Shown here one piece after another: positions 7,842 through 23,348 of a stretch of DNA of 24,000 bases (its first letter is position 1; the number at the start of each line of letters is the position of its first letter). The stretch lies in assembly GCF_016863335.1 (NCBI RefSeq), contig NZ_BOOR01000055.1, positions 70,855-94,854 on the forward strand, read 5' to 3'. The stretch is from Planotetraspora thailandica (lineage in GTDB: Bacteria; Actinomycetota; Actinomycetes; Streptosporangiales; Streptosporangiaceae). The translations under genes and the position numbers were made by a program. The notes under the pieces are model-generated. The model was not told where the DNA came from. It ran no database searches and worked only from the letters and a program-made list of their open reading frames with translations.

Positions 7842-8858
7842 ATGGTCGTGTCCGCCACGTCCCGGCCCGGCGGGGGACGGGGATCCGGAGACCCGGGGGG
7901 GCCTCCACCACCAGCCGGAGGTGGGAGGGGCCGGGTCACCCCCCGGCTCTGGGTGAGGCTGCGCCGTCTCGGCCTGCCGTACCTGCTGATCCTGCCCGCC
8001 CTCGTGCTGGAACTGCTCGTCCACCTGATCCCGATGGTGATCGGGATCGGCATGAGCTTCATCAAGCTCACCCAGCTCTACATTCGGAACTGGTCGGCGG
8101 CCCCGTCCGCGGGGTGGTCGAACTACCACCTGGCGGTGGACTTCAACGCCCCCGTCGGCCGCGCGCTGCTCCACTCGTTCTTCGTGACGATCCTGTTCAC
8201 CGTGATCACGGTCGCGCTGTCCTGGTTCTTCGGGGTGGCCGGAGCCGTGCTGATGCAGGGGGAGTTCCGCGGGCGGGGCGTCCTGCGGGCGTTGTTCCTC
8301 GTGCCGTACGCGCTGCCCGTCTACGCCGGTGTGATCACCTGGAGCTTCCTGCTGCAGCGTGAATCGGGGCTCGTCAACCACGTGCTGGTGGACCAACTGC
8401 ACCTGTTCGGCGACAAGCCCTTCTGGCTCATCGGGTCGAACAGCTTCATCTCCATCATCGTGGTGTCGTTGTGGCGCTGGTGGCCGTTCGCCTTCCTGGT
8501 GCTGATGGCCGGCCTGCAGAACATCCCGCGGGACCTGTACGAGGCGTCGGCGATCGACGGCGCGGGATGGATGCGGCAGCTGCGCTCGGTCACGCTCCCG
8601 ATGCTGCGGCCGGTCAACCAGGTGCTCGTCCTGGTCCTGTTCCTGTGGACCTTCAACGACTTCAACACGCCGTACGTGTTGTTCGGTAAGACGGCGCCCC
8701 AAGAGGCGGACCTGATCTCGATCCACATCTACCAGAGTTCGTTCGTCACCTGGAACTTCGGAACCGGCTCGGCCATGTCCGTGCTGCTCCTGCTGTTCCT
8801 GCTGCTGGTCACGGCGGTCTACCTGGTGATCACCTCGCGGAGGAGGAGCGATGCGTGA
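7842..8858 (+). CDS. Sugar ABC transporter permease (CUT1, MalF/CebF-like)
   Basis: ATG 7842 is preceded by GGAAGGA (7830-7836). The protein has a Gly/Pro-rich cytoplasmic N-terminus, multiple TM segments and the EAA loop YEASAIDGAGWMRQLRSVTLPMLRP. The track start (7803) is possible but lacks an RBS. Confidence 0.88.
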   Translation: MVVSATSRPGGGRGSGDPGGPPPPAGGGRGRVTPRLWVRLRRLGLPYLLILPALVLELLVHLIPMVIGIGMSFIKLTQLYIRNWSAAPSAGWSNYHLAVDFNAPVGRALLHSFFVTILFTVITVALSWFFGVAGAVLMQGEFRGRGVLRALFLVPYALPVYAGVITWSFLLQRESGLVNHVLVDQLHLFGDKPFWLIGSNSFISIIVVSLWRWWPFAFLVLMAGLQNIPRDLYEASAIDGAGWMRQLRSVTLPMLRPVNQVLVLVLFLWTFNDFNTPYVLFGKTAPQEADLISIHIYQSSFVTWNFGTGSAMSVLLLLFLLLVTAVYLVITSRRRSDA

Positions 8859-9690
8859 CCCCAAATGGCTGAAGTGGGTGCGCATCATCGGACTCGGCCT
8901 GCTCGGCCTGTTCACGGTGACGCCGATCTACGTGATGATCACATCGTCGATCAAGCCGCTGAAGGACGTCCAGGGGGACTTCCACTGGATCCCCACGACG
9001 ATCACCTTCAGCGCCTTCCGCGACATGTGGTCGACGGTTCCCCTCGCGCACTACTTCGTCAACAGCGCCATCGTGTCGAGCATTGCGTCGGTCGTCTCGG
9101 TCGTGGTCGCGATCTTCGCGGCCTATGCCGTCAGCCGCTTCCGGTTCGCCGGGCGCAGGGCCTTCTCGATCACGGTTCTGTCGACCCAGATGTTCCCCGG
9201 CATCCTGTTCCTGCTGCCGCTCTTCTTGATCTACGTGAACCTCGGCACCGCGATCGGCGTGGACCTGTACGCCAGCCGCACCGGTCTGATCATCACGTAT
9301 CTGACGTTCTCGCTGCCGTTCTCGATCTGGATGCTGGTCGGCTACTTCGACTCCATCCCCGTCGCGCTCGACGAGGCAGCCAAGGTCGACGGCAGCGGGC
9401 CGGTCGGCGCGCTGATCCGCGTCGTCATCCCCGCCGCGACCCCCGGCATCATCGCCGTCCTCATCTACGCGTTCATGAGCGCGTGGGGTGAGGTGCTGTT
9501 CGCCTCGGTCATGACCGACGAGTCGAGCAGAACGCTCGCCGTCGGCCTGCAGGGATACGCCACACAGAACAACGTGTACTGGAACCAGATCATGGCGGCC
9601 TCGCTGGTCGTCAGCATCCCGGTGGTGGCCGGGTTCCTGCTGCTCCAGCGCTACCTCGTGCAGGGCCTCACCGCGGGCGCGGTCAAGTGA
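8851..9690 (+). CDS. Sugar ABC transporter permease (CUT1, MalG/CebG-like)
   Basis: 279 aa. The start overlaps the upstream stop (ATGCGTGA at 8851-8858). The EAA loop is [26 protein letters not shown], and the profile suggests six TM segments. Confidence 0.92.
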
Positions 9691-12468: not shown

Positions 12469-13431
12469 ATGCAACGGCATCGCACCCGGCGGGGCGGCGC
12501 ACTTTCCTGGCTGGCGGCGCTCGCGGCGGCGCTGATGGCGACCATGGTCCTCGCGGCCTGTTCCGGCAGCGGGTCCTCGGCTGCGCCGTCCGGCGACACG
12601 CATGCCGTGAAGCACGTGCTCGGCACCACCGAGGTTCCCGGCAAGCCGAAGCGCGTCGTCGCGCTCGAATACTCCTTCGTCCAGGCCCTGGACCAGCTCG
12701 GCGTCACCCCGGTCGGCATCGCCGACGACAACGCGTCCGACCGCATCCAGCAGCTGCTCGGCAAGAAGATCAGCTACACGTCCGTCGGCACGCGCCTGGA
12801 GCCCAACCTGGAGCTGGTGAGCAGCCTCAAGCCCGACCTGATCATCGCCGACTCGACCCGGCACGCCAAGATCTACAAGCAGCTCAGCGCGATCGCCCCG
12901 ACCATCGTGCTCAACAGCTGGGAGGGCAGCTACCAGGAGATCAAGGACGGGGTCGTCACCATCGCCGACGCCCTGGGCGACCGCGCCGCCGGCGAGGCGG
13001 TCGTGCGCAAGCACGAGGAGACCATGGCGGCCCTGGCCGCGCAGATCCCCAAGGGGGAGAAGCGCACCTTCATGCTGACCGTCTCGACGCCCGACTCCAT
13101 GACGCTGCACACCTCCACGTCCTTCACCGGGTCGGTGTTCCAGACCCTCGGTCTCACCCCCGCGGTCCAGTCCGACAAGCCGCAGGAGTCGGGCGCCGGT
13201 CTGGAACGGGTGGCGGCCGTGAACCCCGACGTGCTGCTCGTCGCCATCGACGGCTCGGGCACCGCGTACGACCAGTGGAAGGACACCGCCACCTGGAAGG
13301 GCATCTCCGCTGTGAAGAACAACCAGGTCTACGTGGTCGACCGCAACCAGTTCTCCCGCTTCCGCGGCCTCGGCACCGCCGAGGTGATCGCCAAGACCGT
13401 GCTGAAGAACGTCTACCATGTCGACGCCTGA
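12469..13431 (+). CDS. Fe(3+)-siderophore ABC transporter substrate-binding lipoprotein (FhuD/FepB-like, cluster A-2 SBP)
   Basis: ATG 12469 is preceded by GAGAGGGGA. The signal peptide has the lipobox LAAC (…MATMVLAACSGS). PKRVVALEYSFVQALDQLGVTPVG and KPDLIIAD segments are typical of siderophore-binding proteins. The gene lies in an operon with FecCD permeases. Confidence 0.9.
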   Translation: MQRHRTRRGGALSWLAALAAALMATMVLAACSGSGSSAAPSGDTHAVKHVLGTTEVPGKPKRVVALEYSFVQALDQLGVTPVGIADDNASDRIQQLLGKKISYTSVGTRLEPNLELVSSLKPDLIIADSTRHAKIYKQLSAIAPTIVLNSWEGSYQEIKDGVVTIADALGDRAAGEAVVRKHEETMAALAAQIPKGEKRTFMLTVSTPDSMTLHTSTSFTGSVFQTLGLTPAVQSDKPQESGAGLERVAAVNPDVLLVAIDGSGTAYDQWKDTATWKGISAVKNNQVYVVDRNQFSRFRGLGTAEVIAKTVLKNVYHVDA

Positions 13432-14452
13432 CACGGCTGCGCCACCGCGATCGGCCCCGGCACGCTCTGCCCACGCGGCGGACCTGGGGCCGATCCTGGT
13501 CCTGACGGCACTGCTGGCGGCCGGAGTGGTCGCCAGCGTGTGCGTCGGGGCCTCCGGCCTGCCCTTCGCCCGTGCCGTGCACGGGCTTTTCGTCTGGGAC
13601 GGCTCAGCCGACCACGCCCTCGTGCTCGACGTACGGCTCCCGCGCGCGGTGCTCACCGTGCTGGTGGGGGCCAACCTCGCCGTCGCCGGCCTGATCGCCC
13701 AGACGCTCACCCGCAATCCGCTGGCCTCCCCGCAGACCTTCGGCATCAATGCCGGCGCCTCCGTCGCGATCGTCCTGGTCGCCGTCGCCCTGCCCTCCCT
13801 GGGCGGGGCGGGCCTGGTCGTGCCCGCCTTCGCGGGAGCGGCCGCCGTCGGCGCGATCATGTGGTTCCTCTCGGTGTCCGGCGCGGTGACCACCGTCGGG
13901 CTCGCCTTGGCCGGCGTCACCCTGCAACTGGTGCTCACGGCGCTCGTGCAGGCGCTGCTCATCATGAGCAACACCACCCAGGACATGGTGTTCTGGCTCG
14001 CGGGCTCGGTCACCGGGGCGGACTGGTCGAAGGTCGCGGTGATCCTGCCGTTCACGCTCGTCTGCTGCGCGGTCGTGCTGCTGGCCGGCCGGCATCTCGG
14101 TCTTCTCCAACTCGACGTCATGACGGGCGGCTCGCTCGGCCAGAACACCCGCCGCGTCGCCGGGCTGGCCTCCGCGCTGGTGGTGCTGCTCGCGGGGTCG
14201 GCGGTCGCGGTCAGCGGCCCCGTCGGCTTCGTCGGGCTGATCGTCCCGCACATCGTGCGCCGCCTGCCCGGCGGCGGCGACCTGCGCCGCCTCGCCGTGC
14301 TCTGCATGGTCGGCGGCCCGGTGCTGCTCGTGTGCGCCGACCTCGCCGGCCGGGTCGTCGCCTTCCCCCAGGAACTGCCGGTCGGCATCGTGACCGCACT
14401 GATCGGGGCCCCGTCGTTCGTCTTTCTCGCGGTGAGGCAGCGCCACAGATGA
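13418..14452 (+). CDS. Fe-siderophore ABC transporter permease (FecCD family)
   Basis: 344 aa and highly hydrophobic. It carries the FecCD signature region LTRNPLASPQTFGINAGAS and the C-terminal PVGIVTALIGAPSFVFL. The start overlaps the upstream gene by 14 nt. Confidence 0.92.
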   Translation: MSTPDTAAPPRSAPARSAHAADLGPILVLTALLAAGVVASVCVGASGLPFARAVHGLFVWDGSADHALVLDVRLPRAVLTVLVGANLAVAGLIAQTLTRNPLASPQTFGINAGASVAIVLVAVALPSLGGAGLVVPAFAGAAAVGAIMWFLSVSGAVTTVGLALAGVTLQLVLTALVQALLIMSNTTQDMVFWLAGSVTGADWSKVAVILPFTLVCCAVVLLAGRHLGLLQLDVMTGGSLGQNTRRVAGLASALVVLLAGSAVAVSGPVGFVGLIVPHIVRRLPGGGDLRRLAVLCMVGGPVLLVCADLAGRVVAFPQELPVGIVTALIGAPSFVFLAVRQRHR

Positions 14453-15516
14453 CGCCACCGATGAAGCCACCGGCGACCCCGCCCATGACGCCTCCGGCGG
14501 CTCAGGCTCCGACCCCGCCCACGGCCGGACCCCGGCCGGCCCGAATACTGCTGGCCTGCACGGCGGCGCTGACCCTGCTCGTCCTCATCGCCCTGGTGAG
14601 CATCGCGCGGGGCGCCGTCTCGTTGTCGTTGTCCGACGTCGTCGACGGCCTGACCGGCGGCTCCAACGCGTTCATCGTGCAGGAGTACCGGCTGCCGCGT
14701 GTGCTCGTTGCGATCCTCGCGGGTGGCGCGCTCGCGATCGCCGGCGTGTTCCTCCAGGCCGCCATGCGCAACCCGCTCGCCTCGCCCGACGTGGTCGGGC
14801 TCAGCAAGGGCGGCGGCGTCGGCGCGACGGTCGCGGTCATGCTCGCCTCTCCCGCGTCGCAGGTGTGGGCCGTGCCCCTCGGCGTGCTGGCCGGGACCAC
14901 CCTCACCGCGGCCGCGCTGCTGGTGATCAGCCGGAGAATCGGCGCAAGCACGGTGACGCTGGTGCTGGTCGGGGCGGCCCTGGCCGCGCTGGCGGGCGCG
15001 GCCATCGAATACCTCCTCGTGCGCGAGCCGCAGAGCGCCGACCAGGCCCTGGTGTGGCTGGCGGGCAGCGTGTACGGCAGCGACCGCTCCGACGTGACCG
15101 CCCTGCTGGTCTGGCTGGCGGTGTGCCTTCCCCTCGTCGTCGTGGCGACGCGCGCGGCCGACCTGGCCGGATTCGGCGACGACAGCATCGTCAGCCTGGG
15201 CGGCCATCCCGTGCGCGTGCGCGCCACGCTGATCATCGCGGCCGTGCTGCTCACCGCGGGCGCCGTGACGAGTGTGGGCGGAATCGGGTTCCTCGGGTTG
15301 CTGGCCCCCCACCTGGCCCGGTTCGCCGTCGGGTCGCGCGCACGCCACCTCGTGCCGATGTCGGCCGTCACCGGGGCGCTGATCCTGTGCCTCGCCGACT
15401 TCGTCGGCCGGGTCGTCGCACTGCCCAACGAGATCCCAGCCGGCATCGTGGCGGTCGTCGTCGGCGGGCCCTACCTGTTGTTCCTCCTCATCCGGGAGAC
15501 CAGAAAGCATGCCTGA
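14449..15516 (+). CDS. Fe-siderophore ABC transporter permease (FecCD family), second subunit
   Basis: The track ORF 13540..15516 is a run-on in this frame. The real start is ATG 14449, overlapping the upstream stop (ATGA at 14449-14452). The protein has a Pro/Thr-rich N-terminus followed by FecCD motifs (MRNPLASPDVVGLSKGGG, IPAGIVAVVVGGPYLLFLL). Confidence 0.9.
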   Translation: MTPPMKPPATPPMTPPAAQAPTPPTAGPRPARILLACTAALTLLVLIALVSIARGAVSLSLSDVVDGLTGGSNAFIVQEYRLPRVLVAILAGGALAIAGVFLQAAMRNPLASPDVVGLSKGGGVGATVAVMLASPASQVWAVPLGVLAGTTLTAAALLVISRRIGASTVTLVLVGAALAALAGAAIEYLLVREPQSADQALVWLAGSVYGSDRSDVTALLVWLAVCLPLVVVATRAADLAGFGDDSIVSLGGHPVRVRATLIIAAVLLTAGAVTSVGGIGFLGLLAPHLARFAVGSRARHLVPMSAVTGALILCLADFVGRVVALPNEIPAGIVAVVVGGPYLLFLLIRETRKHA

Positions 15517-16351
15517 CCACCACGGCGCGCACGGGCTCGGCGCCCGCGGCCTGTCCACCGGCTACGGCAGCGCCGTGGTCCTCGGCGACGTGACCCTCGA
15601 CGTGCCCGAAGGCAGGATCACCGCCCTGATCGGCGCCAACGGCTGCGGCAAGTCCACCCTGCTGCGCACCCTGGGACGCGCCCTCGACCCGCTCGGCGGC
15701 ACGGTGCTGCTCGACGGCGAGGACATCGCCACCCGGCCCCGGCGCGCCGTCGCCCGGCTGCTCGCCCTCCTGCCGCAAAGCCCGCTCGCCCCGGAAGGTC
15801 TGACCGTACGGGAGTTGTGCGGTTTCGGGCGGCATCCGCATCGGGGGATGTTCTCCCGTGACACGGCCGACGACCAGGCGGCCGTCGCACACGCGCTGAC
15901 GGCGGCCGGGCTGGACGATCTGGCCGACGTGCCGCTGCACCGCCTGTCCGGCGGGCAGCGCCAGCGCGCCTGGATTGCCATGGCCCTGGCCCAGGAGACC
16001 CCGATCATGCTGCTGGACGAGCCGACCACCTATCTCGACATCGCCCACCAGCTCGACGTGCTCAACCTGCTGGCCGAGCTGAACCAGACCCAGGGGCGGA
16101 CCGTCGTCATGGTGCTGCACGACCTCAACCAGGCGGCGCAGTACGCCCATCATCTGATCGCGGTGGCGGGAGGCCGGGTCCACGCCACGGGCAGCCCCGA
16201 CGAGTTGCTCACTCCCGAGCTGATCCGGGCCGTCTTCGGCGTCGAGGCCGTGGTGGTCCCGCACCCGGTGACCGGCACGCCTCTGTGCCTGCCGATCGCG
16301 ACAGGGCGCGCGGCCGAAGAGGGCGCCGACCCCGCCGAGGTGGGCGGCTGA
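15509..16351 (+). CDS. Fe-siderophore ABC transporter ATP-binding protein (FepC/FecE/FhuC-like)
   Basis: 280 aa with Walker A GANGCGKST, signature LSGGQRQR, Walker B IMLLDEPTTYLD and H-loop VLHDLN. The start overlaps the upstream stop (ATGCCTGA). Confidence 0.93.
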   Translation: MPDHHGAHGLGARGLSTGYGSAVVLGDVTLDVPEGRITALIGANGCGKSTLLRTLGRALDPLGGTVLLDGEDIATRPRRAVARLLALLPQSPLAPEGLTVRELCGFGRHPHRGMFSRDTADDQAAVAHALTAAGLDDLADVPLHRLSGGQRQRAWIAMALAQETPIMLLDEPTTYLDIAHQLDVLNLLAELNQTQGRTVVMVLHDLNQAAQYAHHLIAVAGGRVHATGSPDELLTPELIRAVFGVEAVVVPHPVTGTPLCLPIATGRAAEEGADPAEVGG

Positions 16352-16535
16352 ACCGGTCGCCCACCCGGTGCCGGCGACCATGCCGGGGACCGCACTCCCC
16401 GTCTGCTCGCCTCGCCCGGGTGGGCGCGGATGAGGCGCCCTCCCGCGGTCGGCGACCGCAAGGGGCAGATCCTCTCCGTTGCCGGCCACCCCGGGTCGTC
16501 GCCGGCCAGCCTCGCCTGTGGCAGGTGATGTGCCG

Positions 16536-16563
16536 GGGTGAGTGACGCTGCGGACGTCACCCC
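16536..16563. terminator. GC-rich hairpin just outside the left end of the IS element (possible bidirectional or orphaned terminator)
   Basis: GTGACG (16542-16547) pairs with CGTCAC (16555-16560) around a 7-nt loop. An outer GGG/CCC extension spans a 3-nt bulge. Confidence 0.35.
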
Positions 16564-16651
16564 ATAAGTGTCTGACAATATTGCTTGCAGTTCATCCGAT
16601 TTCGCGGTTCAGATGACTTTTGCCGGTCTTCAGCCTCATCGAGCGAGGAAC

Positions 16652-16671
16652 CCCGGGCGTTTACGTCCGGG
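16652..16671 (+). repeat. Left-end (LE) subterminal hairpin of the IS200/IS605 element
   Basis: CCCGGGCG-TTTA-CGTCCGGG forms an 8-bp stem (one G.T pair at position 6) with a TTTA tetraloop. It is preceded by CATCGAGCGAGGA (16637-16649). Confidence 0.75.
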
Positions 16672-16708
16672 AGGCGTCGCTTCCCTAACCTGGGCTTGTG
16701 TCCGGATG

Positions 16709-17141
16709 TCAGTCCGGGTGCTTTTGGTTGTCGATGTGCTCCTTGATGATCGACAGCGGAGCTCCTCCGCAGGAGGCGGCGAAGTAGGACGGGGACCAGA
16801 AATGGCCGCCCCACAGATACTTGCTGATATGGGCCGGGTACTCCTTGCGCAGCAACCGGGCCGAGACTCCTTTGAGGCTGTTGACCAGGCCGGACAGTGC
16901 GATCTGGCGGGGTAGTGGACCAGGAGATGGACATGGTCATGCTCGCCGTTGAACTCCACCAGCGTCGCGCCGAAGCTGTCGCACACCTCGATCATGATGT
17001 CTTCGCAGTGGCGCAAGATCTCGTCGGTGAATACCTTCTGCCGGTATTTGGGCGGGAGACCAAATGGGCGTGCGGGTTGTGGATGGCACTACGGCCTCGT
17101 CGAATATCGGGTTCGGTTTCCAGCCCGGTGACATGGGCCAA
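16709..17141 (-). pseudogene. tnpA: IS200/IS605 TnpA (Y1/HUH transposase) pseudogene, disrupted by two frameshifts
   Basis: Minus-strand homology is split over three frames. These read ...RRGRSAIHNPHAHLVSRP, then KYRQKVFTDEILRHCEDIMIEVCDSFGATLVEFNGEHDHVHLLVHYPA (HUH motif HVH), then QIALSGLVNSLKGVSARLLRKEYPAHISKYLWGGHFWSPSYFAASCGGAPLSIIKEHIDNQKHPD* (stop at 16709-16711). Frame changes occur near 17050-17060 and 16905-16912. The start (TTG 17141) is uncertain. Confidence 0.8.
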
Positions 17142-17159
17142 ACGGTAGTTTGTTCGATT

Positions 17160-18302
17160 GTGAGGCTGGTGGTGCAGGTGAAGCTCCTGCCGACGCCCGA
17201 GCAGGCGGCGGCGTTGGAGACCACGCTGCGTGCCGCCAACAAGGCCGCCGACTTCGTTTCGCGGGTCGCCTTCCAGCAGCGGTGTTTCCGTAACTTCGAC
17301 CTGCGTAAGCACACCTACGAGCAGGTCAAGACCGCCTACGGGCTGGCCGCGCAGGCCGCCCAGCACGTGATCAAGAAGGTCTGCGACGCCTATCGCACCC
17401 TGCATGCCAACCTGGCCGCCCGACACCTGGGCAAGCCAGGATCGGCGCGGCGGGTCAAGGCTGAAAGCAAACCGATCTCCTTCCGCCCTGCGGCGGCCCA
17501 GCCGTACGACGACCGGTGCCTGTCGTGGCAGCACGGAGACCGGACGGTGTCGATCTGGACGATTGCCGGGCGGCTGCGCGGTATCGCGTTCACCGGCTCG
17601 GCCCAGCAGTTGGCGCTGCTGGCCAAGCACCGTAAGGGTGAGTCTGATCTGGTGTGGCGGGAGGGCATGTGGTTCCTGCACGCCACCGTCGAGGTGGCGG
17701 ATGTCTCGATCACCGCGCCGGACGGGTTCCTCGGGGTGGATCTGGGCATCGCCAACATCGCTACCATCTCCGATGGGGTCCGGCACAGTGGCAAGGGCGT
17801 GAACGCGGTCCGGCATAGGCACCGTGAGCTGCGCCGCCGCTTGCAGGCCAAGGCCACCAGGTCGGCCAGGCGGCTGCTGAAACGGCGCCGTCGTAAGGAG
17901 GCCCGCTTCGCTGCGGACGTCAACCACAGCATCGCCAAGCAGATCGTGACCGTGGCAGAACGCACCGGGCAAGGGATCGCCCTGGAAGACCTTAAGGGCA
18001 TCCGCGACCGGGTACGGCTGCGCAAGCCCCAGCGGGTCACGCTGCATTCGTGGAGCTTCCACCAGCTGGGAGCCTTCATCGGCTACAAGGCGGCCCGGGC
18101 CGGGGTCGCCGTGGTCCACGTGGATCCGTCCTACACCTCCCAGCAATGCTCGCACTGCGGGCACGTGGACAAGAACAACCGGCCCGACCAGGAAACCTTC
18201 GCCTGTACGTCGTGCGGCTTCGCTGAGCACGCCGACGTCAACGCAGCCCGCAACATCGCCTCACGCGGTGAGGCGGGCTGGGCAGTGAGTCACGCTGCCT
18301 GA
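17160..18302 (+). CDS. tnpB: TnpB, the IS200/IS605-family RNA-guided DNA endonuclease (OrfB_IS605 plus zinc ribbon)
   Basis: GTG 17160 gives VRLVVQVKLLPTPEQAAALETTL..., matching the usual N-terminus of actinobacterial TnpB proteins; ATG 17133 and track start 17064 are alternatives. A RuvC-like triad is suggested by GVDLGIANIAT (D), IALEDLKG (E) and HADVNAARNIA (D). The zinc ribbon is CSHCG...CTSCG. There are no internal stops or frameshifts. Confidence 0.9.
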   Translation: MRLVVQVKLLPTPEQAAALETTLRAANKAADFVSRVAFQQRCFRNFDLRKHTYEQVKTAYGLAAQAAQHVIKKVCDAYRTLHANLAARHLGKPGSARRVKAESKPISFRPAAAQPYDDRCLSWQHGDRTVSIWTIAGRLRGIAFTGSAQQLALLAKHRKGESDLVWREGMWFLHATVEVADVSITAPDGFLGVDLGIANIATISDGVRHSGKGVNAVRHRHRELRRRLQAKATRSARRLLKRRRRKEARFAADVNHSIAKQIVTVAERTGQGIALEDLKGIRDRVRLRKPQRVTLHSWSFHQLGAFIGYKAARAGVAVVHVDPSYTSQQCSHCGHVDKNNRPDQETFACTSCGFAEHADVNAARNIASRGEAGWAVSHAA

Positions 18303-18380
18303 CGCGGACCGGACCGTCGACGCCATCGACGGCGAGGAGCTGCAAGCTCGGTCGTTTACGGCCGAGAAGCTGACAGTTTG
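18150..18380 (+). ncRNA. Candidate omega-RNA (reRNA) scaffold overlapping the tnpB 3' end and the right end; extent is a guess
   Basis: Inferred by analogy with characterised TnpB systems, where the guide RNA derives from the tnpB 3' end plus RE, with the guide read from flanking DNA. The only direct sequence support is the RE hairpin at 18347-18366. The 5' boundary cannot be seen in the sequence. Confidence 0.3.
18347..18366 (+). repeat. Right-end (RE) subterminal hairpin of the IS200/IS605 element
   Basis: CTCGGTCG-TTTA-CGGCCGAG has the same architecture as the LE hairpin: an 8-bp stem, a wobble pair at position 6 and a TTTA loop. It is preceded by CATCGACGGCGAGGA (18324-18338). Confidence 0.75.
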
Positions 18381-18841
18381 CGGCTGAGGACCGGGTCGGG
18401 GTGGTCCTCGAAACCGAGGCTCCGGTAGAGCCCCTGGCCGTCGGGGCTGGCGTTGAGATCCACCCGGCGCAGGCCGCGGCCCTCGAACCACGCGAGGAGA
18501 TCCTCCATGATCGCCCGGGCGTACCCCCGCTTGCGGTACGCCGGGTCGGTGACGACGCCGAAGACGTGACCGATCAGCCCGCCCGGGTTGTACGGCGTCG
18601 GCAGCCGCCGGTCGACGGCCCCGATCCCGCAGGCGGCCAGGCCCGTCTCGCCGTCGACGACGGCGATCCGCACACCCGTGTCGGCGACCTGCTCGGCCAG
18701 TGCCACCCTGCAGCGTTCCTCCCAGTCGTCCGCGCCGAGCGAGGCGGGTCCCCACACCGCGGCGAGATCGGAGAACAGCAGCACGCGGAGCCGTATCAGT
18801 TCGGCGACGTCATGGGGAGTTGCGGGACGCACGAGGACCAT
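18356..18841 (-). CDS. GNAT-family N-acetyltransferase; its 3' end runs into the IS right end
   Basis: ATG 18841 gives MVLVRPATPHDVAELIRLRV.... The GNAT motif-A region is GVVTDPAYRKRGYARAIMEDLLAWFEGRG...LYRSLGFE. The track start 18913 adds an Arg/Pro-rich extension that is probably not real. The stop TAA is the complement of 18356-18358, inside the RE hairpin loop. Confidence 0.85.
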   Translation of the reverse strand: MVLVRPATPHDVAELIRLRVLLFSDLAAVWGPASLGADDWEERCRVALAEQVADTGVRIAVVDGETGLAACGIGAVDRRLPTPYNPGGLIGHVFGVVTDPAYRKRGYARAIMEDLLAWFEGRGLRRVDLNASPDGQGLYRSLGFEDHPDPVLSRKLSASRP

Positions 18842-18914
18842 GGCCGGGAGCCTACGGCCACGCTCGCCCGTCCAGCGAGGCACCCCGTGCGGCCGCGGAC
18901 TGCTCCCGGGCACG

Positions 18915-19250
18915 TCACCGCCCGGGTCCGGCGTCGAACCGGCTGCACCCGCACGAGCAGGTCCCGGCCGGAGGGTCCGCCCAGTACAAGGCGACGAACG
19001 GCTCCGCGGACGAGGGATGATGCACCCGCTCCCGGGTGACGCGGTAGGACGCGGTGCTGTCCGGCTCCTCAGGAGAGCGGCGTGGCACCGGCACCGTGAG
19101 GAGGCCGATGTCCTGCTCGACGCGGGTGAGCATGCCGTGGCAGGGGCCGCCCAGGCAGATGGCGTTGTGAGAAGGTCTTGCCGGCTGCGGCGTGCGTGCC
19201 GCCTGCCCGCGGTCCGGCGAGGTGGCCGGTGACGTGGCCGGTGAGGTCAT
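18915..19250 (-). CDS. Small hypothetical protein (about 111 aa) with an N-terminal TSPA tandem repeat and Cys residues
   Basis: ATG 19250 gives MTSPATSPATSPDRGQ...ICLGGPCHGMLTRVEQDIGLLTVPVP...YRVTRERV...FVALYW...CSCGC. The upstream in-frame ATG 19367 is possible. I recognise no family. The coding call rests on ORF length, composition and its position upstream of the GNAT gene on the same strand. Confidence 0.5.
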   Translation of the reverse strand: MTSPATSPATSPDRGQAARTPQPARPSHNAICLGGPCHGMLTRVEQDIGLLTVPVPRRSPEEPDSTASYRVTRERVHHPSSAEPFVALYWADPPAGTCSCGCSRFDAGPGR

Positions 19251-19448
19251 GTCGTTCACGCGCACGGGGTCGCTCGGCGCGTCCGCCCGTCGAAGGGGCA
19301 AGGCCGGAAACGTGGTCACCAATTCACCATACGCTCGCAGATTCCGGCCCCATGAGTGCACTGGCATCGCATCGGCATGCTGGCCCGACGGTTAGGCATT
19401 GCACATGCGGGAGCGCGCCGCGCTGGCCGGTTCTCGTAGGGTCGTGCC

Positions 19449-19943
19449 ATGAGTGAACCGGCGTCTTTCGCGGCGTTCGTCGCCTCCGTTCCCCGGTTCC
19501 GGGCAGGGGCGGGAGCCCTTCTTCGGGACGAGCGCGGGCGGGTTCTGCTCGTCCATCCGGTCTACAAGGACACCTGGGAGATCCCCGGCGGGCTGGTCGA
19601 GGCCGGAGAGTCTCCGCTCGCGGCGCTCGTCCGCGAGCTAGAAGAGGAACTGTCGATCACACCGTCGCCCGCGCGGCTGGCGTGCGTCGACTGGGCGCCA
19701 CCGAAGCCGCCGTGGGACGCCGGGCTGATGTTCGTCTTCGACGCGGGAACGCTCAGCGCATCCCAGATCGACCAGATCCGCCTCCCGCCGGGAGAACTCG
19801 ACCAGCACCTTTTCGCCCCTCCCGCCGACCTCGACGGCATTCTGCCTCCGTCATTGGCCAGGAGGATGCGGACGGCCATCGCGGCGGCCGACGCCGGAGT
19901 CACCCTCTACGCGGAGGACGGCGTCGCCCGCAGCCTTCCGTGA
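19449..19943 (+). CDS. NUDIX hydrolase
   Basis: 164 aa with the Nudix box GGLVEAGESPLAALVRELEEELSI (GX5EX7REUXEEXGU). Confidence 0.9.
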   Translation: MSEPASFAAFVASVPRFRAGAGALLRDERGRVLLVHPVYKDTWEIPGGLVEAGESPLAALVRELEEELSITPSPARLACVDWAPPKPPWDAGLMFVFDAGTLSASQIDQIRLPPGELDQHLFAPPADLDGILPPSLARRMRTAIAAADAGVTLYAEDGVARSLP

Positions 19944-19952
19944 CGGCGCTCG

Positions 19953-19990
19953 CGCGAAGGGCCGCGGGCAGCACGCCCGCGGCCCTCGCG
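19953..19990. terminator. Bidirectional terminator hairpin between the convergent NUDIX and phoX genes
   Basis: Perfect 11-bp stem GGGCCGCGGGC (19959-19969) / GCCCGCGGCCC (19975-19985) with the 5-nt loop AGCAC, extendable outward with one bulge. Confidence 0.6.
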
Positions 19991-20003
19991 GAACCGGCCC
20001 GGG

Positions 20004-22076
20004 TCAGGAGCCGATCTTCTTGCCCTGCCTGTGCCATGCGACCGCGACGGACGGCCGGGGCTGGGAGGAGCCGCCGTCGGGCCAGTGGCTGAACGGGTTG
20101 TCGGGGGTCGCGCCGGTGATCTCACCCGGGTGCTGCACGGCGACGAACACGCTCAGCTGATCGGGGGTGATCAGCGGCCCGCAGGTCTCCGCGCCGTACG
20201 GAACGGTCAGGAACTGGCGCACGCGACCGCGCTCGGGGCCGGACAACGGCATCGCGAAGAGGCCGTCGTTCTTCTTGAGCGCGTTGCCGTCCGTCGAGAT
20301 CCACAGATTGCCCTCGGCGTCGAAGGTGACGTTGTCGGGGCAGGAGATGGGGGAGACCTTGCTCTTGTCGTAGCCCGCGAAGTACGTCGAGGGGTCGGCG
20401 GGGTCGCCGCAGACGAGAGGGATCGACCAGGCGAACGTCGTCGCGCCCGCGTCGTTCCAGCGCTCCACGATCTCCAGGATGTGGCCGTGCATGTTGGCGC
20501 TCCGCGGGTTGGCCTCGTCGGCCTGGGCCGCGGTGCGGTTGGAGTTGTTGGTCAGCGCGACGTAGACGGCGCCGTTGACCGGGTTGCGCTCGATGTCCTC
20601 GGGGCGGTCCATCTTGGTCGCCCCCACCTTGTCGGCGGCGACGCGGGTGTAGACGAGCACCTCCTGGGCCGTCATGCCCGTGACGTAGGACTTCTTGCCG
20701 CTGACCAGCGGGATCCAGGTGCCCGAGCCGTCGAAAGCGCGGTCCTTCGGCAGCGTGCCGGAACCGTCGATCTCGGCAGCCGGGCTGTCGCCGGTGAACT
20801 TGGCGACGTACAGCGTGCCCTCGTCGAGCAGGTCACGGTTGTGCCGGTCGTAGCCCGGGATGTAGCGGTCCTTCGACACGAACTTGTAGATGTACTCGAA
20901 CCGGCCGTCGTCGCCCATGTAGACGACCACTCGGCCGTCGCGGGCGAGCGTGGTGGTGGCGCCCTCGTGCGCGAACCTGCCCAGGGCGGTGCGCTTGACC
21001 GGCGTGGAGTGGGGGTCGAACGGGTCGACCTCCACGATCCAGCCGAACCGGTTGATCTCCTGCGGGTGCTTGGCGAGATCGAACCGCTCCTCGACCCGGT
21101 CGAAGCGCCGGTTGCCGCTCGGGATGGACGTGGTGGTGCTGACGCCGTACCGGGCGAGGTAGGTCTTCTGCGCCTCGGGCACGCCGTCTCCGCCGACGAA
21201 GTACTGGTTCCAGTTCTCCTCGCCGCTCAGGACGGTCTGCCACGGGGTCGTGCCCCCCGCGCAGTTGTTGAGCGTGCCGTAGACCGTGGTGCCGTGCTTG
21301 TCGGCCGCCGTCTTGAGCAGCGCCGAGCCCGCCGCGGGCCCGGTGAAGACCATCCGGGTCTGCGCGGTGATACGGCGGTTGTACTTGCGGCGTCCGTGGG
21401 TGACGAGCTTCCACTGGCCGGTGCGCCCGGCCCGCTCCACCTCCACGATGGAGCCGCCGTGCGCCGCGAGACCGATCTTGATCTGCTCCAGCGGGGCGGT
21501 GTCCCCGCTGGTCCAGCCGCGGAACATGAGGTTCTCGTCCGTGTATTCGTGGTTGACCCAGAGCAGGCCGCGGTCGCGGCCCAGGGGGAAGAACGTCACG
21601 AAGTCGCAGTTATAGCCGAACTGCTTGGCCTGCGCCGCGGCCGTCTGCCGGTTGAAGTCGAACTTCGGCGCGTCGGGAAGCACCGGGTCGCCCCAGCGCA
21701 CCACGACAGAGGACGCATATCCGGCCGCGACGGTGAGCGCGTCCGCGGAATTAGGTGCGACCGCGGTGAATCCGAGTCCGCCCCGGCGCCCGGTGGCCGG
21801 GGTGTGGCCGGTGCCGGCCACGGCCGGAAAGGCCCCCGCGACGCCGGCGGTCGCGACGAGCGTGCCGAGCGCCCCCGCACGGAGGGCGCCGCGCCGGGAA
21901 AACACGGCGGAGAGAATGTCGCCGAAATACGGATTGTCACTGGTGTTGGGAACGTCGTGCGCACAGGCATTGCCGCAGCGGAACTGGCAGGTCATGGCAT
22001 CGCGGCCGCCCGAGCGTGGAGCGGATAACAGCGGGAGCAACCTTCGGGGAGAAGGGTTCGTCACCGGAGCCTCCAT
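20004..22076 (-). CDS. phoX: PhoX-family (DUF839) secreted phosphatase with a Tat signal
   Basis: 690 aa. The twin-arginine motif is SRRGALRAGALGTLVATAGVAGAFPAVA. DUF839/PhoX-like motifs include LNNCAGGTTPWQTVLSGEENW, MDRPEDIE and CPDNVTFDAEGNLWISTDG. The N-terminal Cys-rich segment is TCQFRCGNACAHDVPNTSDNPYF. Confidence 0.85.
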   Translation of the reverse strand: MEAPVTNPSPRRLLPLLSAPRSGGRDAMTCQFRCGNACAHDVPNTSDNPYFGDILSAVFSRRGALRAGALGTLVATAGVAGAFPAVAGTGHTPATGRRGGLGFTAVAPNSADALTVAAGYASSVVVRWGDPVLPDAPKFDFNRQTAAAQAKQFGYNCDFVTFFPLGRDRGLLWVNHEYTDENLMFRGWTSGDTAPLEQIKIGLAAHGGSIVEVERAGRTGQWKLVTHGRRKYNRRITAQTRMVFTGPAAGSALLKTAADKHGTTVYGTLNNCAGGTTPWQTVLSGEENWNQYFVGGDGVPEAQKTYLARYGVSTTTSIPSGNRRFDRVEERFDLAKHPQEINRFGWIVEVDPFDPHSTPVKRTALGRFAHEGATTTLARDGRVVVYMGDDGRFEYIYKFVSKDRYIPGYDRHNRDLLDEGTLYVAKFTGDSPAAEIDGSGTLPKDRAFDGSGTWIPLVSGKKSYVTGMTAQEVLVYTRVAADKVGATKMDRPEDIERNPVNGAVYVALTNNSNRTAAQADEANPRSANMHGHILEIVERWNDAGATTFAWSIPLVCGDPADPSTYFAGYDKSKVSPISCPDNVTFDAEGNLWISTDGNALKKNDGLFAMPLSGPERGRVRQFLTVPYGAETCGPLITPDQLSVFVAVQHPGEITGATPDNPFSHWPDGGSSQPRPSVAVAWHRQGKKIGS

Positions 22077-22109
22077 GATCGTAGGCGATTGCCTTTCACC
22101 GTATGATGA

Positions 22110-22131
22110 GCCGTCTGAACTCCAGGTGAAT
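22110..22131 (-). promoter_or_regulatory. Candidate PHO box (PhoP binding site): two tandem 11-nt direct repeat units upstream of phoX
   Basis: The minus strand reads ATTCACCTGGA GTTCAGACGGC. These match the Streptomyces DRu consensus G(G/T)TCAYYYR(G/C)G at 9/11 and 8/11 positions. They lie 34-55 nt upstream of the ATG, followed after 6 nt by the -10-like TACGGT. Confidence 0.4.
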
Positions 22132-22298
22132 TGAGCTTTCCTGTTGGGTTAAGCGATTTCCGTAAAGGTTGTGGCCATGATCTCCGGCAAATCGGTCAGC
22201 CACAAATAACGAAAAATCCGATTATGAATCCATGACGGCATGATTCGACAATTCGTCACGAATTATCGACATATTTAGGGCAATTGGGGCTTGGGTCG

Positions 22299-23348
22299 TC
22301 ATGCGCGGTCGGCGAGCGGGCGCCGCCGCAGCGCGACGTCCACCAGGGCGGGGTGCGTCCACGCGCCGTCGGGGTGGTAGACGTCGGTGCCCGGAGGCAC
22401 GATCTCGTCGATGCGGTCCAGCGTCGCGTCGTCCAATGTGAGGGACGCGCCATCCAGAAGGGATTCCAGCTGCTCCATGGTGCGCGGGCCGATGATGACC
22501 GAGGTTACGGCCGGATGCGCCACGGGGAAGGCGACCGCGAGCTGGGGGAGTGAGCACCCGATCTCCGTGGCGAGCGCGGCGAGCTGCTCGGCTATGTCGA
22601 GCTTGGCCACGTTGACCGGAAGGGCCGGGTCGAAGCGGCCCGGGTTGAGCAAGGCCCGGCCGGTGGTCAGGTCGACGGGCAGGCTCGTGCGGTTCCTGCC
22701 GGTGAGGAAGCCCGAGGCCAGCGGCCCCCAGGTCAGCACGCCCATGCCGTACCGCGCGCAGGTGGGCAGCACGGAGGCTTCGACGCCCCGGGCGAGGATC
22801 GAGTACGGCGGCTGCTCGGTGCGGAAACGCTGGAGGCCGCGGCGCTCGGAGACATGATGCGCCTCGGCGATCTCTTCTGCGGGGAACGTCGAGCAGCCGA
22901 AGGCCCGGATCTTCCCCTGGCTCACCAGGTCGGTGAGCGCGGACAGGGTCTCCTCGATGTCCGTGGTGTGGTCGGGACGGTGCACCTGGTAGAGGTCGAT
23001 CCAGTCGGTGCGCAGCCGCCGCAGGCTGTCCTCCACCGCGGTGACGATCCAGCGCCTGCTGTTGCCGCCCCTGTTGACGCCCTCGCCCATCGGGAAGTGC
23101 ACCTTGGTCGCCAGCACCACCTCGTCGCGTCGTCCGTACAACGCCTTGCCGACGATCTCCTCGGACTCGCCGGCCGAGTACATGTCCGCGGTGTCGACGA
23201 AGTTGACGCCGCCGTCCAGCGCGGCGTGCACGATGCGCGCGCACTCGTCGTGGTCGGGATTGCCGACCGCGCCGAACATCATGGTGCCGAGGCAGTGCAC
23301 GCTGACCTTCATGCCGGTACGGCCGAGGACGCGATAGTGCATGATCAT
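22299..23348 (-). CDS. Aldo/keto reductase (NADP-dependent oxidoreductase)
   Basis: 349 aa. MHYRVLGRTGMKVSVHCLGTMMFG and GVNFVDTADMYSAGESEEIVGKAL are typical AKR N-terminal motifs. The gene is divergent from a MerR regulator. Confidence 0.92.
   Translation of the reverse strand: MIMHYRVLGRTGMKVSVHCLGTMMFGAVGNPDHDECARIVHAALDGGVNFVDTADMYSAGESEEIVGKALYGRRDEVVLATKVHFPMGEGVNRGGNSRRWIVTAVEDSLRRLRTDWIDLYQVHRPDHTTDIEETLSALTDLVSQGKIRAFGCSTFPAEEIAEAHHVSERRGLQRFRTEQPPYSILARGVEASVLPTCARYGMGVLTWGPLASGFLTGRNRTSLPVDLTTGRALLNPGRFDPALPVNVAKLDIAEQLAALATEIGCSLPQLAVAFPVAHPAVTSVIIGPRTMEQLESLLDGASLTLDDATLDRIDEIVPPGTDVYHPDGAWTHPALVDVALRRRPLADRA

What the first reader, a model, noticed from the sequence alone, without database searches (positions are those of the whole stretch)
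16630..18380. IS200/IS605 element with an apparently intact TnpB RNA-guided nuclease beside a dead TnpA
This is the only mobile or system-like locus in the window. The 380-aa TnpB ORF has no frameshifts. It retains a plausible RuvC D-E-D triad (GVDLGIANIAT, IALEDLKG, HADVNAARNIA) and a CxxC...CxxC zinc ribbon. The divergent Y1 transposase is split over three reading frames. A retained nuclease beside a lost transposase fits the picture of TnpB as a selfish homing or possibly domesticated RNA-guided nuclease. TnpB/OMEGA is a described class, but the omega-RNA, guide and TAM of this actinobacterial lineage cannot be read off by homology. This copy is a candidate for a compact programmable nuclease.
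Basis: partly seen in the sequence, partly recalled or inferred. Interest (0 to 1): 0.75.

Follow-up and report, generated by a model that had tools for sequence, protein, structure and literature searches.

The report
IS605-type insertion sequence with live TnpB
This is an ordinary insertion sequence of a family very common in actinomycetes, whose transposase gene is broken by three one-base deletions while its RNA-guided nuclease gene (TnpB), its guide-RNA region and both transposon ends are intact; it is a new copy of a well-known kind of element rather than a new system.

Summary
Window 16634-18374 (1741 bp) is a complete IS200/IS605-family element in Planotetraspora thailandica. It sits directly 3' of a TTCAG motif, one base before the stop codon of a GNAT acetyltransferase gene.

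- **tnpB:** 17133-18302, 389 aa, or 380 aa from the GTG at 17160. It is full length, with the RuvC residues D203/E285/D368 and the CxxC...CxxC ribbon aligned to Cas12f and TnpB structures. NCBI already names it an RNA-guided endonuclease.
- **tnpA:** 17134-16709 on the minus strand, divergent from tnpB. Exactly three 1-nt deletions break it.
- **What 75 related copies add:** The copies give a sharp right end (...AAGCTGAC), a TAM of T-T-C-A-G/A, and a covariation-supported omega-RNA scaffold of about 167 nt (about 18208-18374). The predicted guide is AGTTTGCGGCTGAGGACCGG.
- **Live TnpB beside dead or missing TnpA** is the majority state in this family: 47 of 70 copies with intact TnpB.

Nothing points to domestication. 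Nuclease activity, RNA expression and TAM use are inferred, not shown. This is a new member of a known kind and of low interest. The one mildly notable point is that this clade is closer to Cas12f than to ISDra2 TnpB.

The parts
16629..16633 (+). TTCAG, the predicted transposon-adjacent motif (TAM) and insertion target. It lies outside the element. On the minus strand it contains the original TGA stop codon of the GNAT gene.
   Evidence: 46 left ends give T(34/46)-T-C-A-G(35)/A(11), with unconserved bases upstream. Joining the flanks at TTCAG|AG restores ...SRKL*, as in homologues.
16634..18374 (+). Whole IS200/IS605-family (IS605-type, divergent tnpA/tnpB) insertion sequence, 1741 bp.
   Evidence: Similarity to related copies begins and ends sharply at these positions. 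Relatives with recognisable ends are mostly 1713-1811 bp.
16634..16708 (+). Left end (LE). Outer stem AGCGA 16642-16646 with TCGCT 16677-16681. DNA 'guide' GGAAC 16647-16651. Imperfect hairpin CCCGGGCG-TTTA-CGTCCGGG 16652-16671.
   Evidence: Conserved in 46-49 copies. The outer stem covaries: AGCGA/TCGCT, TGCGA/TCGCA, AGTGA/TCACT, TTCGA/TCGAA, GGCGA/TCGCC. The last guide base covaries with the last TAM base.
16709..17134 (-). tnpA pseudogene (Y1/HUH transposase). Three 1-nt deletions lie between 17112/17111, 17055/17054 and 16910/16909. The HUH motif (HDHVHLLV) and the catalytic Tyr region (SPSYFAAS) are still encoded.
   Evidence: Pfam Y1_Tnp hits in two separate frames. Three-frame translation. 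Alignment to intact L001, L007 and L023. The repaired 142-aa protein is 83-84% identical to intact 142-aa TnpAs over 99-100% of its length.
17133..18302 (+). tnpB, an RNA-guided endonuclease gene: 389 aa as called by NCBI, or 380 aa from the alternative GTG start at 17160. D203 = 17739-17741, E285 = 17985-17987, D368 = 18234-18236. Zinc ribbon C339, C342, C358, C361.
   Evidence: NCBIfam guided_TnpB 210.7 bits over positions 2-389 of 389. Pfam TNB domain. PDB sequence matches to Cas12f and TnpB with aligned catalytic motifs. The residues are invariant in A3. Foldseek finds the Cas12f/TnpB fold over the whole length. dN/dS is 0.23-0.38.
18208..18374 (+). Predicted omega-RNA (reRNA) scaffold. 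It overlaps the last ~95 nt of tnpB and runs to the right end. Helices: 18208-18220/18225-18237; 18257-18260/18267-18270; 18280-18285/18295-18299; 18304-18307/18340-18343, which encloses 18317-18320/18326-18329; and the terminal hairpin.
   Evidence: Synonymous divergence collapses in the last 31 codons, and third-position identity rises to 0.94-1.0 from about 18213. RNAalifold on 74 copies gives 38 pairs, 21 with compensatory changes. 95.7% of cells are paired against 30-47% in slid controls, with 249 double-change cells against 9-37. The window RNA folds with z = -3.16. The 5' limit is approximate.
18347..18374 (+). Right-end (RE) hairpin CTCGGTCG-TTTA-CGGCCGAG (18347-18366) and the terminal transposon-encoded motif CTGAC (18370-18374).
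   Evidence: All 75 located right ends finish in an A(A/G)(C/T)TGAC-type terminus (one reads AGTGGAC), followed by unrelated sequence. The hairpin covaries.
18375..18394 (+). Predicted guide segment of the omega-RNA, AGTTTGCGGCTGAGGACCGG. This is host DNA, the 3' end of the GNAT gene on the opposite strand. The length (about 16-20 nt) is assumed from other TnpBs.
   Evidence: It is the first sequence after the sharply defined right end. It is unique in the window. Its role is inferred from the ISDra2 and ISGst mechanism (PMC8612924; 10.1101/2023.03.14.532601).
18356..18841 (-). Host GNAT N-acetyltransferase gene whose 3' end was hit. The last 5 codons (SASRP) and the TAA stop come from the IS right end.
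   Evidence: Homologues end ...LSRK[L/R/S]* at 155-156 aa against 161 aa here. The uninterrupted homologue L083 reads cgcaagctCTGAG at its stop.

Best explanation
Window 16634-18374 is one copy of an IS200/IS605-family insertion sequence of the IS605 type, with divergent tnpA and tnpB. The family is abundant in Streptosporangiaceae, Micromonospora and Streptomyces.

**Insertion (shown by sequence comparison).** It inserted 3' of the target motif TTCAG, one base before the stop codon of a GNAT gene.

**Transposase (shown).** Its Y1 transposase gene has since been inactivated by three 1-nt deletions.

**Mobility (inferred).** The copy can no longer excise or transpose unless a cognate TnpA is supplied in trans.

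**What stays intact (shown).** The tnpB gene, both hairpin-bearing ends and the RNA region at the 3' end of tnpB.

**Mechanism (inferred from ISDra2 and Geobacillus ISGst elements).**
- Transcription through tnpB and the right end yields an omega-RNA. Its scaffold is about 18208-18374, and its 3' guide is the flanking host sequence AGTTTGCGGCTGAGGA...
- TnpB binds this RNA and cuts double-stranded DNA that carries TTCAG followed by the guide match. That sequence is the empty site left after excision, or an unoccupied allele.
- Recombinational repair from a copy that still holds the element then restores it.
- The occupied site is protected, because the right end finishes in CTGAC rather than TTCAG.

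In this genome, with tnpA dead, the nuclease probably has nothing to do. It is intact because the decay is recent.
For: **Identity of tnpB.**
- Full-length HMM match.
- Catalytic D-E-D residues and the zinc ribbon align to solved Cas12f and TnpB chains and are invariant in relatives.
- A predicted structure matches AsCas12f, OsCas12f and TnpB over the whole length.
- The NCBI name is 'RNA-guided endonuclease InsQ/TnpB family protein [Planotetraspora thailandica]'.

**tnpA decay.** Three 1-nt deletions relative to intact relatives. The repaired protein is 142 aa and 83-84% identical over 99-100% of its length to 142-aa TnpAs.

**Element ends.**
- The right end is sharp at 18374 in the window and at the equivalent point in 74 related loci.
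- The left end starts after TTCAG.
- Empty-site logic: homologues end ...SRK[L/R/S]*. Joining the two flanks gives ...SRKL-TGA, as in the uninterrupted homologue L083.

**TAM and DNA-guide pairing.** The last TAM base against the last base of GGAAC/GGAAT/GGAGT gives 22 G:C, 10 A:T, 3 G:T and 1 A:C, the last in a decayed copy. This matches the cleavage-site recognition rule for IS608, recalled as TCAA/GAAT from Barabas 2008 (own knowledge). The rule was confirmed experimentally for ISGst (10.1101/2023.03.14.532601).

**Omega-RNA.** dS is 0-0.19 in the last 31 codons against 0.29-0.62 elsewhere. The consensus structure has 38 pairs, 21 of them compensatory, and is far above shuffled and slid controls.

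**Selection on tnpB.** dN/dS is 0.23-0.38.

**Family context.** 242 relatives in species-representative genomes, many with intact divergent tnpA. Of 70 copies with intact TnpB, 23 have intact tnpA, 28 have it broken and 19 lack it. Streptomyces plasmids carry up to 14 places per record, annotated IS200/IS605.
Against: - **No expression or activity data.** The omega-RNA, its 5' end, the guide length, TAM use by TnpB and cleavage are all inferred.
- **Structure support is partly ambiguous.** Covariation in the terminal hairpin is also required by TnpA, which binds the single-stranded DNA, so it does not by itself prove an RNA role. The long-range helix 2 (18245-18247 with 18369-18371) has no compensatory support.
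- **The structure model is moderate.** pLDDT is 75 and pTM 0.52, and the RuvC and zinc-ribbon part is the weakest.
- **The TAM logo is partly circular.** The script required [TC]CA[AG][CT] near the expected place. Even so, only 3 of 49 left ends lacked it, and those look decayed.
- **Sampling bias.** The intact-TnpB statistic comes from the 80 best TnpB matches.
- **Selection is historical.** dN/dS reflects the history of the family, not proof of selection on this copy.
- **The rest of the genome was not searched,** whether for more copies or for a trans-acting TnpA.
Confidence: 0.8

Rival explanations
1. Inert relic. The element is what it looks like, but in this genome TnpB and its RNA have no present activity or selective value. 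tnpB is intact only because tnpA loss is recent, and it will decay too.
For: - tnpA is dead.
- Only one contig encodes this exact TnpB.
- No Planotetraspora TnpA appears among the 120 best TnpA relatives.
- Without excision there is no empty site to cut.
- A few relatives already have broken tnpB: L008, L014, L021, L025, L040, L073.
Against: - This rival does not dispute the identity or the biochemical capacity; it is a statement about present selection.
- In 47 of 70 copies TnpB is intact beside a broken or absent tnpA, and dN/dS is about 0.25-0.35. This suggests TnpB tends to outlast TnpA, although the sample is biased towards intact TnpB.
- Other copies or a trans-acting TnpA elsewhere in the genome were not excluded.
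Confidence: 0.25
2. The tnpA frameshifts are assembly errors, and the element is a fully autonomous IS.
For: - All three lesions are single-base deletions.
- At least one lies in a C-run: CCCC in L007 and L023 against CCC here.
- They sum to -3, and the repaired protein is otherwise well conserved, with the HUH motif and catalytic Tyr region kept.
Against: - Three errors within about 200 bp contrast with intact neighbouring ORFs: the 280-aa ATPase, the 389-aa TnpB and the 161-aa GNAT.
- The gene list for the NCBI contig shows no tnpA product.
- Frameshifted tnpA is common in related genomes from independent assemblies.
Confidence: 0.07
3. Domesticated TnpB. The host has kept the nuclease or RNA-guided binder for a function of its own, for example regulation of the adjacent GNAT or transporter genes, in the manner of TldR-type repressors.
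For: - It is a TnpB without a working transposase.
- The guide would match the 3' end of a host gene.
Against: - The catalytic triad is intact, whereas nuclease-dead repressors have lost it (own knowledge).
- Both transposon ends, the TAM and the terminal motif are intact.
- The closest GNAT homologue found (P0002, 74% identity) has no insertion at its stop codon.
- tnpA decay is minimal.
- Every guide in the family is simply whatever flanks the right end.
- The occupied site is flanked by CTGAC, not the TAM, so the RNA has no TTCAG-flanked target in the window.
Confidence: 0.03
4. A miniature CRISPR-Cas12f effector rather than a transposon TnpB.
For: - The best solved-structure matches by sequence and by fold are Cas12f proteins.
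- NCBIfam Cas12f2 aligns at 148 bits.
Against: - The Cas12f2 score is far below its cut-off of 450, while guided_TnpB passes its cut-off.
- There are no direct repeats or array within 13000-22000, and no cas genes among the neighbours.
- The gene sits between IS200/IS605 ends beside tnpA.
Confidence: 0.01

Closest known systems
IS605/IS608 of Helicobacter pylori (IS200/IS605 family, IS605 group)
   Same: - A Y1 HUH transposase gene plus tnpB, divergent as in IS605.
- Subterminal imperfect hairpins at both ends.
- Insertion 3' of a short target motif without duplication.
- Cleavage sites read by a short DNA 'guide' just 5' of each hairpin. Here that is TCAG/GAAC at the left end and TGAC/CAAG at the right end. 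This has the same geometry as IS608 TCAA/GAAT, which is recalled from the literature.
   Different: - The target is TTCAG instead of TTAC.
- The host is a high-G+C actinomycete.
- The left end has an extra outer stem around the hairpin.
- tnpA is a pseudogene in this copy.
ISDra2 TnpB / omega-RNA (Deinococcus radiodurans; PMC8612924; PDB 8EXA, 8H1J)
   Same: - Domain set and RuvC D-E-D plus zinc ribbon.
- The RNA is encoded at the 3' end of tnpB through the right end, with the guide taken from the flanking DNA.
- The TAM equals the transposon target motif.
   Different: - It is only a distant relative: phmmer E 5e-10 and 42 bits, against 107 bits for OsCas12f. Foldseek TMq is 0.45-0.46, against 0.54-0.57 for Cas12f.
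- The TAM is TTCAG rather than TTGAT.
- tnpA and tnpB are divergent rather than co-oriented (gene order in ISDra2 is own knowledge).
Geobacillus ISGst elements (10.1101/2023.03.14.532601)
   Same: - A five-base TAM next to the left end and a related motif at the right end, differing at a few positions. Here TTCAG and CTGAC differ at positions 1, 3 and 5.
- TAM and DNA-guide covariation.
- The homing model.
   Different: - Different TAMs (TTTAT, TTCAT) and a different host phylum.
- Those elements were tested experimentally; this one was not.
Cas12f (type V-F) effectors such as AsCas12f and OsCas12f (PDB 8J12, 7WJU, 9NZQ)
   Same: They are the closest solved relatives by sequence and fold. They have the same RuvC and zinc-ribbon motifs and a similar size (about 400-430 aa).
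   Different: - There is no CRISPR array or cas genes here.
- The guide comes from the transposon end.
- The NCBIfam Cas12f2 cut-off is not reached.
- Whether this TnpB dimerises like Cas12f is unknown.

Membership tests
TnpB (OMEGA RNA-guided endonuclease, IS200/IS605-associated) | Full-length match to the family profile (WED/REC, split RuvC and zinc-ribbon TNB domain), not truncated | tested here: met
   NCBIfam NF040570 guided_TnpB scores 210.7 bits (cut-off 100) over positions 2-389 of 389. Pfam PF07282 scores 85.9 bits (cut-off 26.3). PF01385 scores 30.3 bits, just under its cut-off of 30.5. Foldseek alignments span about 430 columns to AsCas12f and OsCas12f.
TnpB (OMEGA RNA-guided endonuclease, IS200/IS605-associated) | RuvC catalytic D-E-D triad and CxxC...CxxC zinc ribbon present at the aligned positions | tested here: met
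   GVDLG, IALEDL and HADVNAARN align with GVDMG, IQMEDL and NADFNASQN of 9nzq and with the AsCas12f chains. D203, E285, D368, C339, C342, C358 and C361 are invariant in 39 relatives. That these are the catalytic positions in Cas12f and TnpB is taken from established knowledge.
TnpB (OMEGA RNA-guided endonuclease, IS200/IS605-associated) | Structured guide RNA (omega-RNA/reRNA) encoded at the 3' end of tnpB and the right end | tested here: met
   This holds at the level of conservation and covariation only. dS collapses in the last 31 codons. The consensus has 38 pairs, 21 compensatory. 95.7% of cells are paired against 30-47% in slid controls. No Rfam family matches. Transcription was not tested.
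TnpB (OMEGA RNA-guided endonuclease, IS200/IS605-associated) | RNA-guided, TAM-dependent double-stranded DNA cleavage | not testable with these tools
   Needs a plasmid-interference or TAM-depletion assay.
IS200/IS605 insertion sequence | Y1 (HUH) transposase gene tnpA | tested here: met
   It is present as a pseudogene. Pfam Y1_Tnp scores 31.1 and 42.5 bits on two fragments. Three 1-nt deletions break it. The repaired protein is 83-84% identical to intact TnpAs. A functional transposase is therefore not present.
IS200/IS605 insertion sequence | Subterminal imperfect hairpins at both ends, no terminal inverted repeats, and sharply defined ends shared by many copies | tested here: met
   The left hairpin is 16652-16671 and the right hairpin 18347-18366, both with a TTTA loop. 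The ends are shared by 46-75 copies, with covarying stems.
IS200/IS605 insertion sequence | Insertion 3' of a specific short target motif without target duplication | tested here: met
   TTCAG or TCAA precedes the left end in 46 of 49 left ends. The right flank shows no repeat of the motif. The reconstructed empty site matches the stop-codon region of GNAT homologues. A same-species empty site was not available.
Cas12f (type V-F CRISPR effector) | Adjacent CRISPR array and cas adaptation genes; family-specific profile score | tested here: not met
   There are no direct repeats in 13000-22000. The neighbours are a transporter ATPase, GNAT and NUDIX. NF049972 Cas12f2 scores 148 bits against a cut-off of 450.

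The most novel reading that the evidence does not exclude
This large actinomycete TnpB clade is nearer to Cas12f than to ISDra2 TnpB in both sequence and predicted fold. It may represent a transposon-borne stage on the way to Cas12f, for instance a TnpB that already works as a dimer on one omega-RNA. It could also supply a 380-aa nuclease native to high-G+C hosts, with a five-base TTCAG TAM that I could not find reported together with TnpB in the searchable literature.
Probability: 0.12. Interest if true: 0.5.

Novelty: new member of a known kind. Interest (0 to 1): 0.2.

Why it matters
This matters little for basic biology. It is one more copy of a very common transposon type, and it behaves as the published TnpB homing model predicts, including the frequent loss of tnpA beside a surviving tnpB.

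The practical value is modest. The comparative analysis gives a ready-to-test design for this lineage:
- protein 17133 (or 17160) to 18302;
- RNA scaffold about 18208-18374, followed by a 16-20 nt guide;
- TAM TTCAG.

That design could be tried as a compact nuclease in Streptomyces and other high-G+C actinomycetes, and used to ask whether Cas12f-like TnpBs dimerise.

Tried and rejected
- **Rfam.** No family reached its gathering score in the whole window. A permissive scan of 16550-18450 gave only a chance-level Chlorobi-1 hit at E 1.7. The RNA is therefore not a curated family.
- **More copies in the window.** The right-end motif GCCGAGAAGCTGAC occurs exactly once. The guide sequence also occurs once.
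- **CRISPR array near the gene.** None found.
- **Promoter scan of 16350-18450.** No sigma-70-like sites. This is uninformative for an actinomycete.
- **Other copies, or a cognate TnpA, in the same genome.**
  - The exact TnpB is on one contig only.
  - No Planotetraspora TnpA is among the best 120 TnpA relatives.
  - The source genome did not appear among the loci listed from the species-representative collection, so the rest of the genome could not be searched.
- **Literature search for TnpB with TTCAG.** Only an unrelated paper turned up.
- **An early coordinate slip of mine,** which placed the TAM at 16623-16627, was corrected to 16629-16633.
- **Left boundary after TTCAGC instead of TTCAG.** Rejected. 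It would extend GNAT by 15 residues, unlike any homologue, and it breaks the register of the TAM/DNA-guide covariation.
Full report
**Source and setting.** The window comes from contig JBHLUG010000018.1 of assembly GCA_042434005.1. Proteins encoded there are named Planotetraspora thailandica, family Streptosporangiaceae. The finding lies between an iron-siderophore-type ABC transporter operon (two FecCD permeases and an ATPase ending at 16351) and a convergent GNAT acetyltransferase gene. NUDIX and PhoX genes follow. G+C drops from about 0.73 to 0.61-0.67 across 16501-18000. The rest of the window holds ordinary metabolic and transport genes.

**The observation.** The plus-strand ORF 17064-18302 is open throughout.
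- NCBI calls the 389-aa product from 17133.
- NCBIfam guided_TnpB matches at 210.7 bits (cut-off 100) over model positions 2-389 of 389, and Pfam finds the Cas12f1-like TNB domain. The protein is therefore not truncated.
- Against all PDB sequences, the best matches are Cas12f proteins: 9nzq at 1e-29, and the AsCas12f entries 8j12, 8j1j and 7wju. ISDra2 TnpB follows at 5e-10.
- In those alignments GVDLG, IALEDL, HADVNAARNIA and both CxxC pairs sit on the corresponding motifs.
- In an alignment of 39 relatives, D203, E285, D368, C339, C342, C358 and C361 are invariant.
- An AlphaFold2 model (pLDDT 75, pTM 0.52) has a confident N-terminal half. It matches AsCas12f and OsCas12f at TMq 0.54-0.57, and ISDra2 and ISFba1 TnpB at about 0.46, over the whole length.

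On the minus strand the Y1 transposase is in pieces. Alignment to intact relatives shows exactly three single-base deletions, between 17112/17111, 17055/17054 and 16910/16909. After repair the protein is 142 aa. It is 83-84% identical over 99-100% of its length to many 142-aa TnpAs.

**Ends of the element.** A scan of species-representative genomes found 242 relatives of the TnpB, and the best 80 loci were fetched.
- *Right end.* Similarity among copies stops abruptly after ...GCCGAGAAGCTGAC, window position 18374, and the downstream sequences are unrelated. This holds for 75 located right ends, all finishing in an A(A/G)(C/T)TGAC-type terminus (one reads AGTGGAC).
- *Left end.* Similarity starts just after a conserved TTCAG at window 16629-16633.
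- *Size.* The element is 16634-18374, 1741 bp, within the 1713-1811 bp range of most relatives with recognisable ends.
- *Hairpins.* Both ends carry an imperfect hairpin with a TTTA loop, at 16652-16671 and 18347-18366. The left one sits inside an outer stem that covaries among copies.

**Target site.**
- The GNAT gene here is 161 aa and ends ...SRKLSASRP. Its homologues are mostly 155-156 aa and end ...LSRK[L/R/S].
- Joining the left and right flanks at TTCAG|AG gives, on the minus strand, AAA CTC TGA, that is ...SRKL-stop. An uninterrupted homologue reads cgc aag ctc tga at the same place.
- The element therefore inserted one base before the stop codon. The five extra codons and the new stop come from its right end.
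- A boundary one base further in (TTCAGC) would add 15 residues that no homologue has. I rejected it.

**TAM and cleavage-site recognition.**
- In 46 left ends the five bases before the element are T(34/46)-T-C-A-G(35)/A(11). The bases further upstream are not conserved. The script required a CA[AG] core, so part of this invariance is built in. Even so, only three decayed left ends lacked it.
- The last TAM base covaries with the last base of the five bases just 5' of the left hairpin: G with GGAAC 22 times and A with GGAAT, GGAGT or CGAAT 10 times. There are three G:T cases and one A:C, the last in a decayed copy.
- This is the rule known for IS608 and shown experimentally for Geobacillus ISGst elements. 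A short DNA 'guide' beside the hairpin pairs with the cleavage site (10.1101/2023.03.14.532601).
- The right end finishes in CTGAC, which differs from TTCAG at positions 1, 3 and 5. In that paper, such a difference is what keeps TnpB from cutting the occupied site.

**Guide RNA.**
- Among 25 close relatives, third-codon-position identity rises from about 0.5-0.8 to 0.94-1.0 from about 18213 to the stop codon.
- Pairwise dS in the last 31 codons is 0-0.19, against 0.29-0.62 in the rest of the gene. Something other than the protein constrains this stretch.
- RNAalifold on the last 200 nt of 74 copies predicts 38 pairs in eight helices, and 21 pairs have compensatory changes.
- Counted against controls, 95.7% of cells are paired, compared with 84% in shuffles and 30-47% when partners are slid. 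There are 249 double-change cells, against 68 in shuffles and 9-37 when slid.
- The window sequence alone folds at -95.6 kcal/mol, z = -3.16.
- The terminal hairpin is also a TnpA DNA site, so its covariation is ambiguous. The upstream helices are not needed by TnpA: 18208-18237, 18257-18270, 18280-18299, and 18304-18343 with its inner hairpin. They fit an omega-RNA scaffold of about 167 nt.
- The three-pair long-range helix has no compensatory support, and I do not rely on it.
- No Rfam family matches.
- The guide would be the host sequence from 18375, AGTTTGCGGCTGAGGACCGG, which is unique in the window.

**How it most likely works.** The published mechanism comes from ISDra2 (PMC8612924), ISGst (10.1101/2023.03.14.532601) and the RNA-processing work (PMC10278001).
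- TnpA excises and reinserts the single-stranded element at TTCAG sites.
- TnpB, loaded with the right-end-derived RNA, cuts the TTCAG-plus-guide joint left behind.
- Recombination with a sister copy then restores the element.

All sequence features that this mechanism needs are present here except a working TnpA. The activity itself is inferred. With tnpA dead, and with no cognate TnpA visible for this species among the best 120 relatives, this copy is probably stranded. Its TnpB is probably idle.

**Family context.**
- Purifying selection on TnpB is seen across the family, with dN/dS 0.23-0.38.
- Among 75 loci not at contig edges, TnpB is intact in 70. Of those, tnpA is intact in 23, broken in 28 and absent in 19. 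The loci were chosen as the best TnpB matches, which favours intact TnpB.
- 'Live TnpB beside dead TnpA' is thus the usual state in this family, not a special feature of this locus.

**Comparison and novelty.**
- The element passes every testable defining feature of an IS200/IS605 insertion sequence and of TnpB. It fails those of a CRISPR-Cas12f locus: there is no array, no cas genes, and the Cas12f2 profile scores 148 bits against a cut-off of 450.
- The family is very large. At least 5455 proteins score E<=1e-30 among the scored candidates. There are 85 plasmid records, mostly Streptomyces, with up to 14 places per record and IS200/IS605 annotation.
- NCBI already names this protein an RNA-guided endonuclease.
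- Nothing supports domestication. The triad, ends and TAM are intact. The closest GNAT homologue found has no insertion at its stop codon. tnpA decay is minimal.
- It is a new member of a known kind.
- Two points go slightly beyond routine. The clade is closer to Cas12f than to the model TnpB, and its predicted TTCAG TAM did not turn up with TnpB in the searchable literature. Both remain to be tested.

**Caveats.**
- There are no expression or cleavage data.
- The 5' end of the RNA and the guide length are estimates.
- The three tnpA deletions have not been checked against reads, and one lies in a C-run.
- The rest of the genome could not be searched.

Noticed in passing
window 17132-17135: The tnpA start codon (minus strand, 17134-17132) and the NCBI-called tnpB start codon (plus strand, 17133-17135) share one CATG palindrome, so the divergent genes would overlap by 2 nt. 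Most relatives are 380 aa, which suggests the real tnpB start is the GTG at 17160.
   Followed up: partly
window 18356-18374: The insertion replaced the GNAT stop codon. The host protein now carries five extra residues (SASRP) and uses a TAA lying in the TTTA loop of the IS right-end hairpin.
   Followed up: yes
L027, L042, L054, L078 right flanks; also L051 and L066: The sequence just after the right end is near-identical in representatives of different Micromonospora species (CTGCAACGGTGGTC...). L051 and L066 share another flank (GAAGGATACTGCGG...). Either the same insertion is inherited across species or the target itself is repeated.
   Followed up: no
L016, L022, L015, L049, L035, L044 (left ends); L015, L022, L064 (right ends): Several copies carry a tandem duplication of the hairpin-loop unit (for example GTTTACTGTTTACGC), so the end hairpins tolerate loop expansion.
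   Followed up: no
window 18208-18237: The first predicted omega-RNA helix lies in the codons for the second CxxC of the zinc ribbon (TSCGFAEHADV) and still shows compensatory changes (CG to GC in 18 sequences, UA to GC in 16). The same bases serve both a protein and an RNA constraint.
   Followed up: partly
window 16525-16555: An inverted repeat, GTGAGTGACGCTGCGGACGTCACCCC, lies between the transporter ATPase gene and the original GNAT stop. It is probably the shared terminator of the two convergent host genes, now separated from GNAT by the IS.
   Followed up: no
window 22001-22500 and 8001-9500: G+C dips to 0.60 and 0.63-0.65, outside the finding. The genes there are an aldo/keto reductase and sugar-transporter permeases. 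No mobile-element signal was seen.
   Followed up: partly
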